Origin: Escherichia coli
GTDB lineage: Bacteria > Pseudomonadota > Gammaproteobacteria > Enterobacterales > Enterobacteriaceae
DNA: 64,000 nt
Assembly: GCF_016026235.1 (NCBI RefSeq)
Contig: NZ_CP065613.1
Direction: 5' to 3' (one strand)
Numbering within the stretch: the first letter of the stretch is position 1; each line of letters opens with the position of its first letter. Made by a program: the position numbers. Below are positions 12,801 through 18,800 of the stretch, one piece after another.

Positions 12801-15800
12801 GTTTACGTGGCCGCGCAGGCAAAACTGCGACATTATAATGCTCAAGCATCTGCTGGTAGGTAGGGTTAACGTCAGGATCATACTTACATGCCCTGGATGT
12901 GGCGCTTTTCAGATTGTCCGGAACAACAAGTTCAGGAACGCCACCCAACCACTGGAAGCAGCGAACATGACTCATCACCCAGTCTTCAAGCTGCTGAGAC
13001 CAGGTGGCCTCTGCCCATGTGTAACTTGATGCCCCGAGAACAGCTACGATGACCTGAGCAGTTCTTATTTCTCCGGTCTCAGGGTCGGTAACGCCAACGG
13101 TAGGTCCACAGTAATCAACGAAAAGTTTTTCGCCAGCTTTATGTACCTGACGCATTGATGGTGAAGTGGTTTTGAGCCATTCACGGTACATCCGGCAGTA
13201 ATGGTTATAGCTGTAAAAACCGCCTGGATTACGCTCACAGTATTCTTCCCAGAGTAGCTGCAGCGTCACGCATTTATTACGCAGTTCCCAGTGTACTGTA
13301 GCCCAGTCAGGCAGAGAGTGCTTCTTCATCTTAACCTGGGTCTGAAGGAACGCATGTTTTAGTTTTGTATCATCCCATCCTGTAGGTAAGGGCCACTGCT
13401 TTATGCCAAGTTGAGCCGCCCGATTAGCATATCTGGATACAACGGAAGGGGAGATTGCAAGACTACGACCAATTTGTCGATGGCTGAGTCCAACACCGTA
13501 TTTAAGCCTAAGAATTTCTTTAAGTTTTCTCATAGAAATTGGAACTGTTGGCATAGGTATCCTTTACCGGAATGGCAAAAGATACAGATCAACACACCTG
13601 TGAAGTTCCAATAACATTGATGGAGATCACTGAATAACAAAATGAGTCAAAAGTGATCTCCATCGATGTTATTCAGCGATCTGTTCAAATGTTATTACCC
13701 GATCTCGATGGAAGTTATTGAGTGATCTCCTTTCATGAAAATACGCACTATGACCGGATTCTGGCAGGCTCCCGCAGCCATCAGACCGGTGTAAACGGTG
13801 AAAATAACAGCGTCCGTCTCAGCATTCAGGGCGGTCATCTCGGTCACGATAACAACGGCGGTATTGCCCGTGGAGCCACGCCGGAAAGCAGCGGCAGCTA
13901 TGGCTTCGTCCGTCTGGAGGGTGACCTGCTGAGAACAGAGGTTGCCGGTATGTCTCTGACGACAGGGGTGTATGGTGCCGCAGGCCATTCTTCCGTTGAT
14001 GTTAAGGATGATGACGGTTCCCGCGCCGGCACGGTCCGGGATGATGCCGGCAGCCTGGGCGGATACCTGAATCTGACACACACGTCCTCCGGCCTGTGGG
14101 CTGACATTGTGGCACAGGGAACCCGCCACAGCATGAAAGCGTCATCGGACAATAACGACTTCCGCGCCCGGGGCTGGGGCTGGCTGGGCTCACTGGAAAC
14201 CGGTCTGCCCTTCAGTATCACTGACAACCTGATGCTGGAGCCACAACTGCAGTACACCTGGCAGGGGCTCTCCCTGGATGACGGCCAGGATAACGCCGGT
14301 TATGTGAAGTTCGGGCATGGCAGTACACAACATGTGCGTGCCGGTTTCCGTCTGGGCAGCCACAACGATATGACCTTTGGTGAAGGCACCTCATCCCGTG
14401 ACACCCTGCGCGACAGTACAAAACACGGTGTGAGTGAACTGCCTGTGAACTGGTGGGTACAGCCTTCTGTTATCCGCACTTTCAGCTCCCGGGGTGACAT
14501 GAGCATGGGTACAGCCGCCGCCGGCAGTAACATGACGTTCTCACCGTCCCGGAATGGCACGTCACTGGACCTGCAGGCCGGACTGGAAGCCCGTGTCCGG
14601 GAAAATATCACCCTGGGCGTTCAGGCCGGTTATGCCCACAGCGTCAGCGGCAGCAGCGCTGAAGGTTATAACGGTCAGGCCACGCTGAATGTGACTTTCT
14701 GATAATCAGGTCACTCTCCTTCAGGCCCCGGTCATCATGACCGGGGCTTTTTACTTTCAGGGAGCAACAGATATGCCGGGTTGTACATCACGTTTATTGC
14801 CCGAAGGCCCTTTCTCACGCGAACAGGCTGTTGCCGTCAAAACAGCTTACCGCAATGTGTTTACTGAAGATGACTAGGGAACATATTCCCGGCTGGTTAT
14901 CCGTAATGCTGAAGGTCAGTTGCGCTGGTGATGCCGGAACACAGCTTAATACTCAGCTCGCCAGTTAAGGGCTTCTCAGACAATAAACGTCATTCATTTC
15001 ATCTGTCAGGCCGCGTCTTCTCCGGGAGACGTGGCTTTTTCATTTATTACACCAGTAAATCTTAACCACCGATAAGGAGCAAATTATGCGACTAGCCAGT
15101 CGTTTTGGTTATACGAACCAGATACGCCGTGACCGTCCGCTGACACACGAAGAACTGATGCACTATGTTCCCAGTATTTTCGGTGAAGACCGGCATACTT
15201 CCCGCAGTAAACGATATGCGTACATTCCCACCATCACCGTACTGGAAAGCCTGCAGCGGGAAGGCTTTCAGCCATTCTTCGCCTGCCAGACCCGTGTGCG
15301 CGACCCGGGCCGCCGGGGATACACAAAACATATGCTGCGTCTGCGGCGGGCCGGAGAGATAAACGGAGAACATGTCCCTGAAATCATTCTGCTCAACTCC
15401 CATGACGGTACCTCCAGCTACCAGATGCTGCCGGGTTACTTCAGGTTCGTCTGTCAGAACGGATGCGTCTGTGGTCAGTCTCTGGGGGAAGTGCGTGTTC
15501 CGCACCGGGGAAATGTGGTGGAGAAAGTTATCGAAGGGGCTTACGAGGTGGTGGGCGTGTTTGACCGGATAGAGGAGAAGCGTGATGCCATGCAGTCGCT
15601 GGTCCTGCCGCCACCGGCACGCCAGGCGCTGGCACAGGCGGCACTGACTTACCGTTATGGTGACGAACATCAGCCCGTCACCACCGCCGACATTCTGACG
15701 CCACGACGCCGGGAGGATTACGGTAAGGACCTGTGGAGTGCTTATCAGACCATCCAGGAGAATATGCTGAAAGGCGGGATTTCCGGTCGCAGTGCAAAAG

Positions 15801-18800
15801 GAAAACGTATCCATACCCGGGCCATTCACAGCATTGATACCGACATTAAGCTCAATCGCGCATTGTGGGTGATGGCAGAAACGATGCTGGAGAGCCTGCG
15901 CTGATGCCGTTTCCCTGAGTGAGGGAATCATTCAGCTTTCGTTCCTGAAAAACACACATTTATTTGTTATTTAAGGAGTTATCTCATGAAAAGCGTTTCT
16001 CAGAATACCCCCACAATTTATTCAGCTACAACACCAGAGAATAATCCGCCTCAGTTTGTTGCCAGCCTCGTCCCTGATGAACAGCGCATCAGCTTCTGGC
16101 CGCAGCACTTTGGCCTCATTCCACAGTGGGTGACCCTGGAGCCCCGTGTCTTCGGCTGGATGGACCGTCTGTGCGAAGACTACTGCGGTGGTATCTGGAA
16201 TCTGTACACCCTGAACAACGGCGGGGCATTTATGGCACCCGAACCGGATGACGATGATGACGAAACATGGGTACTGTTCAATGCCATGAACGGTAACCGC
16301 GCTGAAATGAGCCCGGAAGCCGCCGGTATTGCCGCCTGTCTGATGACGTACAGTCATCATGCCTGTCGTATGGAGAATTATGCCATGACGGTCCATTATT
16401 ACCGGTTGCGGGATTACGCCCTGCAGCATCCGGAATGCAGCGCCATTATGCGCATCATCGACTGAATGGAGAGAAGCACAATGCAACAACTTTCCTTTCT
16501 GCCCGGAGAGATGACGCCCGGCGAGCGCAGCCTCATTCAACGGGCCCTGAAAACCCTGGACCGCCATCTTCATGAACCCGGCGTGGCCTTCACCTCCACC
16601 CGGGCGGCACGGGAATGGCTGATTCTGAACATGGCGGGACTGGAGCGTGAAGAGTTCCGGGTGCTGTATCTGAACAACCAGAATCAGCTGATTGCCGGTG
16701 AAACCCTCTTCACCGGCACCATCAACCGCACGGAAGTCCATCCCCGGGAAGTGATTAAACGCGCCCTGTACCACAATGCCGCTGCCGTGGTACTGGCACA
16801 CAATCACCCGTCCGGTGAAGTCACACCCAGTAAGGCAGACCGGCTTATCACCGAACGTCTGGTACAGGCACTGGGCCTGGTGGATATCCGGGTGCCGGAC
16901 CATCTGATAGTCGGTGGCAACCAGGTTTTCTCCTTTGCCGAACATGGTCTGCTTTAACCCGTCACAACCACATCACACCTGTTTTCACTTTTATCTTCTG
17001 TCTTCAGAGGTATCCCATTATGAAAATTATCACCCGTGGTGAAGCCATGCGTATTCACCAACAACATCCGACATCCCGTCTTTTTCCGTTCTGTACCGGC
17101 AAATACCGCTGGCACGGCAGTGCTGAAGCGTATACCGGTCGTGAAGTGCAGGATATTCCCGGTGTGCTGGCCGTGTTTGCAGAACGCCGTAAGGACAGTT
17201 TTGGTCCGTATGTCCGGCTGATGAGCGTCACCCTGAACTGATGTTCCGTCACCCGGAAAACGAGTACGACTGGCTGAGCTCAGACGCCGCTGTGGATGAG
17301 GTCCTGCTCATCAACGAATACACCTTTACCGAAGCCGGTCTGCGCGCCGGCTGACCCGTCATCGTTAAACTATCATTCACCGATTTTCTGTGAGGATTTT
17401 ATCGTGTCAGACACACTTTCCGGGACAACGCATCCCGATGACAATGACGACCATCCCTGGTGGGGACTACCCTGCACAGTGACGCCCTGTTTCGGCGCCC
17501 GTCTGGTGCAGGAGGGTAACCGGTTGCATTACCTTGCCGACCGTGCCGGTATCAGAGGCCGGTTCAGAGATGCGGATGCGTACCCTCTGGACCAGGCCTT
17601 TCCGCTGCTGATGAAACAACTGAAATTAATGCTCACCAGTGGTGAACTGAATCCCCGCCATCAGCATACCGTGACACTGTATGCGAAGGGGCTGACCTGT
17701 GAAGCCGACACCCTCGGCTCCTGTGGTTACGTTTATCTGGCTGTTTATCCGACACCTGAAACGAAAAAGTAAACCACCAGAATAACCTTCTGCTCCGGCC
17801 TGGTGTTTTCACCACGCCACTGTCCCATTTTTTATCTCTGCATATCAGGAAAATCTTCAGTATGAAAACATTACCCGACACGCATGTACGGGAGGTATCG
17901 TGCTGCCCGTCTCTCGTCACCATCTGGCAGACACTGCTCACCCGACTGCTGGACCAGCACTACGGCCTTACGCTGAATGACACACCGTTCGCTGATGAAC
18001 GTGTGATTGAACAGCATATTGAGGCAGGCATTTCACTGTGTGACGCGGTGAACTTTCTCGTTGTAAAATACGCGCTGGTACGTACCGACCAGTCGGGATT
18101 CAGCGCCTGTACCCACTCTCAGTTAATAAACAGCATCGATATCCTCCGAGCTCGCCGGGCAACAGGCCTGATGACCCGCGACAATTACAGAACGGTAAAT
18201 AACATTACCCTGGGGAAGCATCCGGAGGCGAAACGATGAAACTGGCCCTGACGCTGGAAGCCGACAGCGTTAACGTGCAGGCGCTGAACATGGGGCGCAT
18301 TGTCGTTGACGTCGATGGTGTTAATCTCGCTGAACTGATTAACAAGGTCGCTGAAAACGGTGATTCACTCCGCGTGGTGGATGAACGTGACTCTACCGAA
18401 ACACCGGCAACTTATGCCAGCCCTCACCAGTTGCTGTAAGACAATGCAGTGATACAGGGTATAGTGCCATTAACCACAGAAACAGCACTGTTGTCCTGTA
18501 TTAAGCAGGCAAGAGAAGATGTCCTTACCCTGCGCCATCTGCAGCTTCTGCACCAGAACCAGTGAATCTCACTCAACAGGCTTCATTTCCCCTGACGCCA
18601 GCCTGAATACAGCTGGCGTTTTCATTTATAAACAGAAAGGAAAACCGATAATAATGGAATGGACGCCCCTACCATGAAGCAACGGTAGGATATTACTGAT
18701 AAACCTTCCAGTGGAGGTGCGTTATGGCCGTTTTAACGATTAGCATTGACCTGACAAAAAATGAATTCCAAATCCACGGTCTGGGTAGGAACAGAAAAAT

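What the first reader, a model, noticed from the sequence alone, without database searches (positions are those of the whole stretch)
15086..18439. CP4-44-like accessory module: DUF932, antirestriction, RadC-like, YeeT, CbeA-CbtA, YeeW
This is a recognisable family arrangement. It is worth noting because CbtA targets cytoskeletal proteins (established for K-12) and the module sits next to two IS-disrupted genes. Compared with what I recall of K-12 CP4-44 it carries a DUF932 and an antirestriction gene, resembling CP4-57/CP4-6 arrangements.
Basis: partly seen in the sequence, partly recalled or inferred. Interest (0 to 1): 0.3.

Follow-up and report, generated by a model that had tools for sequence, protein, structure and literature searches.

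The report
Ordinary CP4-44 island toxin–antitoxin module
This is a well-known, very common block of accessory genes at the CP4-44 island of E. coli, carrying an anti-restriction gene, a RadC-like protease and the CbeA/CbtA toxin–antitoxin pair; it is intact but partly eroded, and it is ordinary.

Summary
Seven same-strand ORFs at 15086-18439 each hit the named Pfam family well above threshold: DUF932, Antirestriction (ArdB/KlcA), RadC-JAB, DUF987 (YeeT), CbeA, CbtA and the DUF5983 N-terminal domain (YeeW). cbeA and cbtA have no frameshift or stop.

The locus is the true CP4-44 site of an E. coli chromosome with an O143 O-antigen cluster. The left flank is isrC-flu and the right flank is yoeF-tmaR(yeeX)-yeeA-sbmC.

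K-12 CP4-44 carries yeeR where this window has DUF905(pseudogene)-DUF932-ArdB, and K-12 CP4-6 and CP4-57 have the DUF932/antirestriction genes. The two IS-disrupted neighbours are real:
- flu is split by an IS21-family element.
- The yeeP-like GTPase is cut by an IS4-family element.

The block is extremely common. It occurs at 80% coverage or more in 4326 of 5426 complete E. coli genomes, with a median of 3 copies. All seven exact protein sequences are already in public databases.

It is a partly eroded copy of a longer conserved island-end module. DUF905 is a pseudogene, DUF8835 is deleted, and DUF5983 and DUF957 are truncated.

Verdict: already known, low interest.

The parts
14773..14986 (+). 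DUF905 (YkfF/YpjK-like) pseudogene. It has an in-frame TAG at 14875 and a TGA about 54 nt later, then a frameshift. It is followed by a terminator-like hairpin at 15008-15037.
   Evidence: Sequence and three-frame translation compared with the intact DUF905 of strain E70. The ortholog in SW07091 is annotated as a frameshifted DUF905. Hairpin.
15086..15904 (+). DUF932 protein, 272 aa, intact. Function unknown.
   Evidence: Pfam PF06067, E 2.8e-52, full profile. 74% identical to K-12 YfjQ and YafZ. dN/dS 0.11 against the paralogous E70 copy. AF2 model pLDDT 94 with no significant PDB neighbour.
15986..16465 (+). ArdB/KlcA-type antirestriction protein, 159 aa.
   Evidence: Pfam PF03230, E 6.5e-37. 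Aligns over its full length with PDB 2WJ9, E 3.7e-98. PMC2836571 lists a 157-aa ArdB of E. coli CFT073; equating 2WJ9 with it is from memory. 67-68% identical to K-12 YfjX/LfgA and YafX.
16481..16957 (+). RadC-like JAB/JAMM domain protein (YeeS), 158 aa. An alternative upstream ATG lies at 16466. The motif H-N-H-PSGEVTP-S-KA-D is intact.
   Evidence: Pfam PF04002, E 8e-45. TIGR00608 above its cut-off. 100% identical to K-12 YeeS over its 148 aa. PDB 2QLC RadC homolog, E 6e-26. Motif read from the translation. dN/dS 0.03.
17020..17241 (+). YeeT, DUF987, 73 aa.
   Evidence: Pfam PF06174, E 1.9e-39. 100% identical to K-12 YeeT.
17241..17354 (+). 3' remnant of a DUF8835 gene, readable as a 37-aa ORF (MFRHPENEYDW...TFTEAGLRAG). 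About 550 bp of the gene are deleted, which explains the long 162-nt yeeT-cbeA spacer.
   Evidence: Sequence. In other E. coli genomes the same DNA lies under a DUF8835 gene. Alignment to strain E70 shows L005 4451-5000 missing from the window.
17404..17772 (+). cbeA (yeeU) type IV antitoxin, 122 aa, GTG start, intact.
   Evidence: Pfam PF06154, E 8.2e-53. 89% identical to K-12 CbeA over 122/122 aa. Identical to WP_001295723.1. PDB 2H28 YeeU, E 6.8e-74.
17862..18239 (+). cbtA (yeeV) toxin, 125 aa, intact. F65 is retained, position 15 is Cys, and position 68 is Val (E68V relative to the closest annotated allele).
   Evidence: Pfam PF06755, E 9.3e-61, full profile. 86% identical to K-12 CbtA over 124 aa. 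Residues read and interpreted with PMC5624674. The exact sequence is already public on 25 contigs.
18236..18439 (+). yeeW, the N-terminal 67-aa fragment of a DUF5983 protein. Its start overlaps the cbtA stop (ATGA). K-12 yeeW shows the same truncation.
   Evidence: Pfam PF25638 DUF5983_N. 86% identical to K-12 YeeW. The full-length DUF5983 in E70 is 162 aa. SW07091 annotation: missing C-terminus. dN/dS 0.55.
18470..18565 (+). DUF957 remnant, internally deleted and without a start codon.
   Evidence: Translation compared with the DUF957 of E70, and blastn of window 18483-18652 against L005 6606-6786 at 79.7%.
18729..19757 (+). IS110-family transposase pseudogene with several stops, lying between the module and yoeF. 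Coordinates are approximate, transferred from SW07091.
   Evidence: Pfam PF02371 on ORF 19363-19752. SW07091 annotation: IS110 family transposase, frameshifted, internal stop. Absent from K-12.
11167..13747 (-). Context: IS21-family element (istA 12013-13554, istB 11252-12001) inserted in flu/Ag43, with a CTATGA target duplication. The flu fragments are 9269-11166 and 13748-14702.
   Evidence: blastn against SW07091. Junction sequences. Pfam rve/Mu-transposase C-terminal domain and IstB_IS21. Autotransporter beta-domain on the 3' fragment.
8199..8897 (+). Context: yeeP-like GTPase lacking about 58 N-terminal codons, abutting an IS4-family transposase that is itself split (7400-8209 and 6926-7363, minus strand).
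   Evidence: blastn: the window match begins at L001 3700, inside the GTPase CDS 3526-4398. Pfam MMR_HSR1 and DDE_Tnp_1.

Best explanation
The region is the resident copy, at the CP4-44 locus of an E. coli chromosome, of the conserved accessory module found at the end of P4-like or tRNA-associated integrative islands.

What the sequence shows:
- Six full-length coding genes (DUF932, ArdB, RadC-like JAB, DUF987/YeeT, CbeA, CbtA) plus the truncated yeeW lie head to tail on one strand.
- The six full-length genes are under purifying selection.
- Eroded remnants of the longer module surround them: a DUF905 pseudogene, a DUF8835 deletion, and DUF5983 and DUF957 truncations.

What is inferred from characterised close homologues:
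- ArdB relieves type I restriction in vivo by an indirect route that is not DNA mimicry.
- The RadC-like protein is a JAMM zinc metallo-enzyme. Its CP4-57 paralog LfgB was reported to degrade the antitoxin MqsA.
- CbtA blocks cell division and elongation by binding FtsZ (through the surface that includes F65) and MreB.
- CbeA neutralises CbtA without binding it, by bundling and stabilising FtsZ and MreB filaments. This is a type IV toxin-antitoxin pair.
- By analogy with the CP4-57 lfgABCDE operon, the genes from ardB through cbtA and yeeW are probably one transcription unit.

The biochemical roles of DUF932 and DUF987 remain unknown. Overall this is a stabilisation and anti-defence cargo of a decayed mobile island, not a new system.
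For: Family assignment: Pfam hits for all seven ORFs. Sequence matches to solved YeeU (2H28), YfjZ, ArdB/KlcA-family (2WJ9) and RadC structures.

Locus: collinear at 99.5% with E. coli SW07091, whose PGAP annotation names the same genes. Synteny with K-12 CP4-44 on both flanks and an isrC/IS102 RNA upstream of flu.

Identity to K-12: YeeS and YeeT 100%, CbeA 89%, CbtA 86%, YeeW 86%.

Selection: dN/dS 0.03-0.41 for the six full-length genes.

Gene layout: the 89-nt cbeA-cbtA spacer matches K-12's 88 nt (PMC5371832). The cbtA stop overlaps the yeeW start. Only weak terminator-like hairpins fall inside the block; the two strongest lie upstream of DUF932.

Literature:
- CbtA binding to FtsZ and MreB, and F65 conserved in all three K-12 toxins (PMC5624674).
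- Four ArdB proteins, including those listed for CFT073, YafX and YfjX, and two KlcA proteins showed antirestriction in vivo against type I R-M systems but not in vitro (PMC2836571).
- The yfjXY-ypjJ-yfjZF set is an operon and LfgB is a protease (PMC10846083).

Ubiquity: at 80% coverage or more in 4326 of 5426 genomes, median 3 copies. All seven exact proteins are already public.
Against: - No expression or activity data exist for this strain.
- No convincing sigma-70 promoter was found directly upstream of DUF932 or ardB.
- In E. coli Nissle the DUF932 gene (called yfjQ there) rose together with fluC (PMC11056357). If the two are adjacent there (not checked), that would fit read-through from the flu promoter, which the IS21 insertion in flu could abolish here.
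- CbtA carries E68V, three residues from the FtsZ determinant F65. It has Cys rather than Arg at position 15, the K-12 MreB determinant, although YpjF and YkfI also have C15 and still block elongation.
- The protease assignment for RadC-like proteins is disputed. Iyer et al. favour a nucleic-acid substrate (PMC5512222).
- PADLOC finds no defence-system model for any of the seven proteins.
Confidence: 0.9

Rival explanations
1. The block is functionally dead cargo. Although the ORFs are open, the island has decayed: it carries IS insertions and lacks neighbouring module genes. The IS21 insertion in flu removes the upstream transcription that normally feeds the module, so none of these proteins is made in this strain.
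For: Heavy erosion surrounds the block. DUF905 is a pseudogene, DUF8835 is deleted, DUF5983 and DUF957 are truncated, an IS110 pseudogene follows, and flu and the GTPase are IS-disrupted. No good promoter match lies upstream of DUF932 or ardB, and two terminator-like hairpins precede DUF932. DUF932 transcript levels rose together with fluC in Nissle.
Against: All six full-length genes are open and show dN/dS well below 1. The same deletion allele is conserved nearly identically in thousands of genomes. The paralogous CP4-57 operon has its own promoter upstream of the antirestriction gene (PMC10846083).
Confidence: 0.12
2. The module is chiefly an establishment (anti-defence) cassette that acts when the island enters a new host, rather than an addiction module in the resident host. 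ArdB disarms restriction, RadC processes incoming DNA or host factors, and CbtA/CbeA transiently delays division while the element establishes itself.
For: An antirestriction gene is tightly and repeatedly linked with RadC and CbtA. [quoted passage not shown] ArdB acts against all four type I families in vivo.
Against: No transfer, integrase or excision genes were identified in the part of the island examined. K-12 CP4-44 is reported to lack an integrase and to be unable to excise (PMC5371832). The module sits almost only on chromosomes: 7 of 14683 matches are on plasmids. Resident-host phenotypes (oxidative stress, biofilm) are reported for the K-12 paralogs (abstracts seen).
Confidence: 0.25
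3. CbeA/CbtA, alone or with its neighbours, acts as an abortive-infection anti-phage system.
For: Many chromosomal toxin-antitoxin systems on islands defend against phage, and a type IV toxin-antitoxin system (AbiE) is an abortive-infection system (PMC3985639, listed). CP4-57 carries defence genes nearby, abpAB and rnlAB.
Against: No PADLOC model matches any of the seven proteins. The searches run here turned up no report of phage defence by CbtA. The co-resident ArdB is an anti-defence function rather than a defence function.
Confidence: 0.07

Closest known systems
E. coli K-12 cryptic prophage CP4-44 (flu-yeeR-yeeS-yeeT-cbeA-cbtA-yeeW)
   Same: - Same chromosomal locus and flanks: isrC-flu on the left and yoeF-tmaR-yeeA-sbmC on the right.
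- YeeS and YeeT are 100% identical in amino acid sequence.
- CbeA is 89%, CbtA 86% and YeeW 86% identical.
- The YeeW truncation is the same, and the cbeA-cbtA spacer is about 89 nt in both.
   Different: - K-12 has a 1.6-kb yeeR segment in place of window 14746-16504 (DUF905 pseudogene, DUF932, ArdB and the first ~8 codons of radC). The yeeR form occurs in 2177 of 5426 genomes.
- The window keeps a DUF8835 remnant and an IS110-family pseudogene that K-12 lacks.
- flu is IS21-disrupted here.
- CbtA has C15 and V68 where K-12 has R15 and E68.
- yeeS-yeeT is 99.2% identical in DNA but cbeA-cbtA only 91%. This mosaic suggests recombination among paralogous copies.
K-12 CP4-57 lfgABCDE operon (yfjX-yfjY-ypjJ-yfjZ-ypjF) with yfjQ, and the CP4-6 set yafZ...yafX-ykfG-ykfH-yafW-ykfI
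   Same: - Same gene order: antirestriction, RadC, DUF987, antitoxin, toxin.
- A DUF932 gene lies upstream.
- Functions were tested for these paralogs: ArdB activity, LfgB protease activity, and YpjF/YkfI toxicity with FtsZ binding.
   Different: - Protein identity is only 61-82%.
- In K-12 several extra genes separate DUF932 from the antirestriction gene, whereas here they are adjacent with an 81-nt gap.
- The toxin-antitoxin spacer is 20 nt in the K-12 paralogs and 89 nt here.
- Those paralogs have no YeeW.
Full-length island-end module in other E. coli islands (e.g. strain E70: DUF905-DUF932-antirestriction-JAB-DUF987-DUF8835-YeeU-CbtA-DUF5983-DUF957-DUF4942)
   Same: Collinear at about 91.5% DNA identity across DUF905 to DUF987 and from YeeU to the 5' part of DUF5983.
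   Different: - DUF905 is inactivated in the window.
- DUF8835 is lost through a 550-bp deletion.
- The 3' two-thirds of DUF5983 are missing.
- Most of DUF957 and all of DUF4942 are gone.
ArdB/KlcA-family protein of PDB 2WJ9 (from memory, the ArdB of E. coli CFT073 PAI II)
   Same: Full-length alignment with E 3.7e-98. The sequence is almost identical from residue 30 onward.
   Different: The N-terminal ~30 residues diverge, and there are three substitutions in the conserved part. Activity of this allele has not been tested.

Membership tests
CbtA/CbeA (YeeV/YeeU) type IV toxin-antitoxin pair | Toxin matches the CbtA_toxin family (PF06755) over the full profile | tested here: met
   E 9.3e-61, profile positions 1-112 of 112. 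86% identical to K-12 CbtA over 124 aa with no frameshift or stop.
CbtA/CbeA (YeeV/YeeU) type IV toxin-antitoxin pair | Antitoxin matches the CbeA_antitoxin family (PF06154) and the solved YeeU fold family | tested here: met
   E 8.2e-53. PDB 2H28 YeeU at E 6.8e-74 and 2INW at E 4.7e-75. 89% identical to K-12 CbeA.
CbtA/CbeA (YeeV/YeeU) type IV toxin-antitoxin pair | Antitoxin gene lies immediately upstream of the toxin gene on the same strand | tested here: met
   cbeA 17404-17772 and cbtA 17862-18239, with an 89-nt spacer. K-12 has 88 nt (PMC5371832).
CbtA/CbeA (YeeV/YeeU) type IV toxin-antitoxin pair | FtsZ-interaction determinant F65 is conserved (it is conserved in CbtA, YpjF and YkfI) | tested here: met
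   The window CbtA reads ...AVN-F65-LVVKY. Role of F65 from PMC5624674. The neighbouring E68V change is of unknown effect.
CbtA/CbeA (YeeV/YeeU) type IV toxin-antitoxin pair | Toxin expression arrests growth and alters cell shape, and the antitoxin rescues without binding the toxin | not testable with these tools
   This needs an expression and rescue assay, microscopy and an interaction assay.
ArdB/KlcA antirestriction proteins | Match to PF03230 and to solved ArdB/KlcA structures | tested here: met
   PF03230 at E 6.5e-37. 2WJ9 at E 3.7e-98 over the full length and KlcA 2KMG at E 8e-21.
ArdB/KlcA antirestriction proteins | Relieves type I restriction in vivo | not testable with these tools
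   Reported for the ArdB proteins of CFT073, YafX and YfjX (PMC2836571), but not for this allele.
RadC-like JAB/JAMM domain proteins | RadC JAB domain with an intact metal-binding motif H-x-H-x7-S-x2-D | tested here: met
   PF04002 at E 8e-45. TIGR00608 scores 149.1 bits against a cut-off of 133.85. The motif HNH-PSGEVTP-S-KA-D is present in the translation.
DUF932 | Full-length match to PF06067 | tested here: met
   E 2.8e-52, profile positions 2-227 of 227. The family has at least 5400 clusters at 50% identity.
DUF5983 (full-length YeeW family) | Both the N-terminal domain and the C-terminal part of the ~162-aa protein are present | tested here: not met
   Only DUF5983_N is present, in a 67-aa product. 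The C-terminal ~95 aa found in strain E70 are absent. This is a truncated remnant, as in K-12.
CP4-44 locus of E. coli | Position between isrC-flu and yoeF-tmaR(yeeX)-yeeA-sbmC | tested here: met
   blastn collinearity with K-12 and SW07091. IS102/IsrC RNA at 9014-9250.

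The most novel reading that the evidence does not exclude
The conserved island-end module, of which this is an eroded copy, may work as one coordinated establishment and anti-defence cassette. Its least understood member, DUF932, would be an enzyme. The AF2 model is high-confidence (pLDDT 94), has no significant PDB neighbour, and the family has invariant C123, N125 and H140. A strain-level variant of this reading is that the E68V change next to F65 retunes or weakens CbtA binding to FtsZ. Neither idea is excluded by the evidence, and neither is specific to this window.
Probability: 0.12. Interest if true: 0.4.

Novelty: already known. Interest (0 to 1): 0.08.

Why it matters
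It matters little. The block is one of the most frequently repeated accessory modules in E. coli, and its key parts (CbtA/CbeA, ArdB, RadC-like LfgB) have been studied in close homologues. The useful result is a correct annotation:
- The toxin-antitoxin pair and its neighbours are intact.
- The locus is the true CP4-44 site, in its DUF932/ArdB form rather than the K-12 yeeR form.
- The surrounding genes (DUF905, DUF8835, DUF5983, DUF957, flu, the GTPase) are eroded or IS-disrupted, which fits the several IS copies and remnants found in the first 20 kb of this O143 E. coli window.
- DUF932 and DUF987 remain functionally uncharacterised across the whole family. That is a general open question, not one raised by this window.

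Tried and rejected
- PADLOC scan of all seven proteins gave no defence-system model, so a phage-defence reading has no support.
- NCBIfam added only RadC family names and a sub-threshold TIGR03299 hit for DUF932.
- Rfam at gathering thresholds found no RNA inside the module.
- The two long antisense ORFs (279 and 307 aa) have no Pfam hit and were rejected as shadow ORFs.
- I considered whether the window was Shigella because of its IS load. All exact proteins are recorded as E. coli, and the O-antigen cluster is O143 at 99.6% identity to E. coli genomes.
- I considered the 37-aa ORF in the yeeT-cbeA spacer as a possible small gene. It was rejected in favour of a DUF8835 3' remnant.

Full report
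**Observation.** Pfam assigns each to the named family with E-values from 4.5e-29 to 9.3e-61 and essentially full profile coverage:

| Coordinates | Family |
|---|---|
| 15086-15904 | DUF932 |
| 15986-16465 | Antirestrict (ArdB/KlcA) |
| 16466/16481-16957 | RadC JAB |
| 17020-17241 | DUF987 (YeeT) |
| within 17296-17772 | CbeA_antitoxin |
| 17862-18239 | CbtA_toxin |
| 18236-18439 | DUF5983_N (YeeW) |

This is far beyond chance. Three refinements apply. cbeA most likely starts at GTG 17404 (122 aa), as annotated in K-12 and in the closest genome. radC most likely starts at ATG 16481. YeeW is only the N-terminal third of a DUF5983 protein. The long antisense ORFs have no family hit, and no Rfam family lies in the block.

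**Where it is.** Window 13747-23000 is collinear at 99.5% with E. coli SW07091. PGAP annotates that stretch as Ag43, DUF905 (frameshifted), DUF932, antirestriction, YeeS, DUF987, YeeU-family antitoxin, CbtA-family toxin, DUF5983 (partial), an IS110 pseudogene, EutP/PduV, tmaR, yeeA, sbmC and dacD. The same flanks are those of cryptic prophage CP4-44 in K-12. An IS102/IsrC RNA lies upstream of flu, as in K-12. So this is the orthologous CP4-44 locus, not merely a look-alike. The his leader at 30033 and an O143 O-antigen cluster at 44-57 kb place the window in an E. coli O143 chromosome.

- Against CP4-44: YeeS and YeeT are 100% identical, CbeA 89%, CbtA 86% and YeeW 86%, all aligned end to end.
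- K-12 carries a 1.6-kb yeeR segment in place of window 14746-16504. That window stretch holds the DUF905 pseudogene, DUF932, ArdB and the first codons of radC.
- Against CP4-57 and CP4-6: DUF932 is 74% identical to YfjQ and YafZ. ArdB is 67-68% identical to YfjX/LfgA and YafX. RadC is 78-82% identical, and the toxin and antitoxin 61-67%.

The yeeR form is itself common, in 2177 of 5426 genomes, so this is a standing polymorphism. DNA identity to K-12 is 99.2% over yeeS-yeeT but 91% over cbeA-cbtA-yeeW. This mosaic is best explained by recombination among the several paralogous copies per genome, which is an inference.

**Integrity of the toxin-antitoxin pair.** CbeA is identical to WP_001295723.1. 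CbtA differs from WP_000854757.1 only by E68V, and that exact variant is already public on 25 contigs. F65, the FtsZ determinant conserved in CbtA, YpjF and YkfI, is retained. Position 15 is Cys, as in YpjF and YkfI. R15 is a K-12 CbtA-specific MreB determinant and is not conserved in the family (PMC5624674).

dN/dS against a paralogous island copy (E70) is as follows:

| Gene | dN/dS |
|---|---|
| RadC | 0.03 |
| YeeT | 0.06 |
| DUF932 | 0.11 |
| CbtA | 0.16 |
| CbeA | 0.33 |
| ArdB | 0.41 |
| YeeW (truncated, against K-12) | 0.55 |

The six full-length genes therefore behave as constrained coding genes.

**What surrounds it.** The two IS-disrupted neighbours are real. flu/Ag43 is split by a 2.58-kb IS21-family element at 11167-13747, which carries IstA and IstB, has inverted ends TGCGTAT.../...ATACGCA and is flanked by a CTATGA duplication. 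The yeeP-like GTPase lacks about 58 N-terminal codons next to an IS4-family transposase that is itself interrupted.

Comparison with strain E70 shows that the window's block is an eroded copy of a longer conserved module. That module runs DUF905, DUF932, antirestriction, JAB, DUF987, DUF8835, YeeU, CbtA, DUF5983, DUF957, DUF4942. In the window:
- DUF905 has two in-frame stops and a frameshift (14773-14986).
- A 550-bp deletion removed DUF8835, leaving a 37-aa ORF (17241-17354) that accounts for the long yeeT-cbeA spacer.
- DUF5983 is cut to 67 aa.
- DUF957 is an internally deleted remnant (18470-18565).
- An IS110-family pseudogene follows.

The DUF8835-deleted allele is itself widespread, present at 80% coverage or more in 3140 genomes.

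**How it most likely works.** The sequence shows gene content, order, intact reading frames, an intact JAMM motif (HNH-PSGEVTP-S-KA-D), tight spacing and a cbtA/yeeW ATGA overlap. Only weak terminator-like hairpins fall inside the block, while two strong ones precede DUF932.

The following points are inferred from close homologues:
[quoted passage not shown] The window protein aligns over its full length with PDB 2WJ9.
- The RadC-like protein is a JAMM metallo-enzyme. The CP4-57 paralog LfgB was reported to degrade MqsA (PMC10846083). Iyer et al. favour a nucleic-acid substrate instead (PMC5512222).
- CbtA binds FtsZ and MreB independently and blocks division and elongation (PMC5624674). CbeA is the type IV antitoxin; that it acts by bundling FtsZ and MreB filaments rather than by binding the toxin is from established knowledge of the K-12 pair, not from a passage read here.
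- The paralogous five genes in CP4-57 form one operon, lfgABCDE, so ardB through cbtA and yeeW is probably one unit here too.

DUF932 and DUF987 have no known function. A confident AF2 model of DUF932 (pLDDT 94) has no significant neighbour in the PDB. The family alignment shows invariant P29, C123, N125, H140 and G230.

**Rivals.**
- Silent cargo. This is plausible for expression in this strain, because the IS21 insertion could abolish any read-through from flu; DUF932 transcripts rose with fluC in Nissle. It is contradicted by purifying selection and by the paralog's own promoter.
- An establishment or anti-defence cassette that acts on entry into a new host, the idea of Iyer et al. This is compatible with the data, but no mobility genes were identified in the part of this island examined, and K-12 CP4-44 is reported to lack an integrase.
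- Phage defence. There is no PADLOC support.

**Novelty and verdict.** The block matches at 80% coverage or more in 4326 of 5426 complete E. coli genomes, with a median of 3 copies per genome, almost all chromosomal. All seven exact protein sequences are already in public databases under the same names. The shared arrangement of the three K-12 modules has been described (PMC5371832). The finding is correct, well annotated and ordinary: already known, low interest.

Noticed in passing
window 11167-13747: A complete IS21-family element (istA 12013-13554 and istB 11252-12001, minus strand) is inserted in flu/Ag43. It has a CTATGA target duplication and imperfect terminal inverted repeats, and both of its ORFs are intact.
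   Followed up: partly
window 6926-8209 (minus strand) and 8199-8897 (plus strand): An IS4-family transposase is split into 269-aa and 145-aa ORFs. It abuts and truncates the 5' end of a yeeP-like GTPase gene.
   Followed up: partly
window 17241-17354: The 162-nt yeeT-cbeA spacer holds a 37-aa ORF that is the C-terminal remnant of a DUF8835 gene lost through a ~550-bp deletion. The same deletion allele is present in more than 3000 E. coli genomes.
   Followed up: yes
window 17862-18239 (codon 68): CbtA carries E68V relative to the closest annotated allele (WP_000854757.1), three residues from the FtsZ-binding determinant F65. The variant is already public on 25 contigs, and its effect is unknown.
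   Followed up: partly
[not shown]
   Followed up: partly
window 16505-17241 versus 17380-18823: Identity to K-12 CP4-44 is mosaic: 99.2% DNA identity over yeeS-yeeT but 91.4% over cbeA-cbtA-yeeW. This suggests recombination or gene conversion among paralogous island modules.
   Followed up: no
window 44000-57000: A low-GC (~30%) O-antigen gene cluster is 99.6% identical to E. coli O143 clusters (O143-family wzx and wzy). Only 4 of 5426 complete genomes cover it. A JUMPstart element lies at 56801-56839 (minus strand), and an ISAs1-family transposase match lies near 56.5-57 kb.
   Followed up: partly
window 9014-9250: An Rfam IS102/IsrC sRNA match (76.7 bits) lies immediately upstream of the flu start, as in K-12 CP4-44.
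   Followed up: no
window 12-848, 852-2021 and 3420-6636: The upstream part of the island holds an IS110-family transposase fragment, a YagK/YfjJ-family gene (1416-2021, minus strand), an AlpA-like small ORF region, and two ORFs of 205 and 305 aa with no Pfam hit (3901-4518 and 5719-6636; the latter lies in a ~42-43% GC stretch).
   Followed up: no
window 18729-19757: An IS110-family transposase pseudogene with several stops lies between yeeW and yoeF. K-12 keeps only a small remnant here (yoeD).
   Followed up: partly
window 27220-27294 (minus strand) and 30033-30156 (plus strand): Rfam matches the STnc240 sRNA and the histidine operon leader, consistent with the yeeA-to-his-to-O-antigen chromosomal context.
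   Followed up: no
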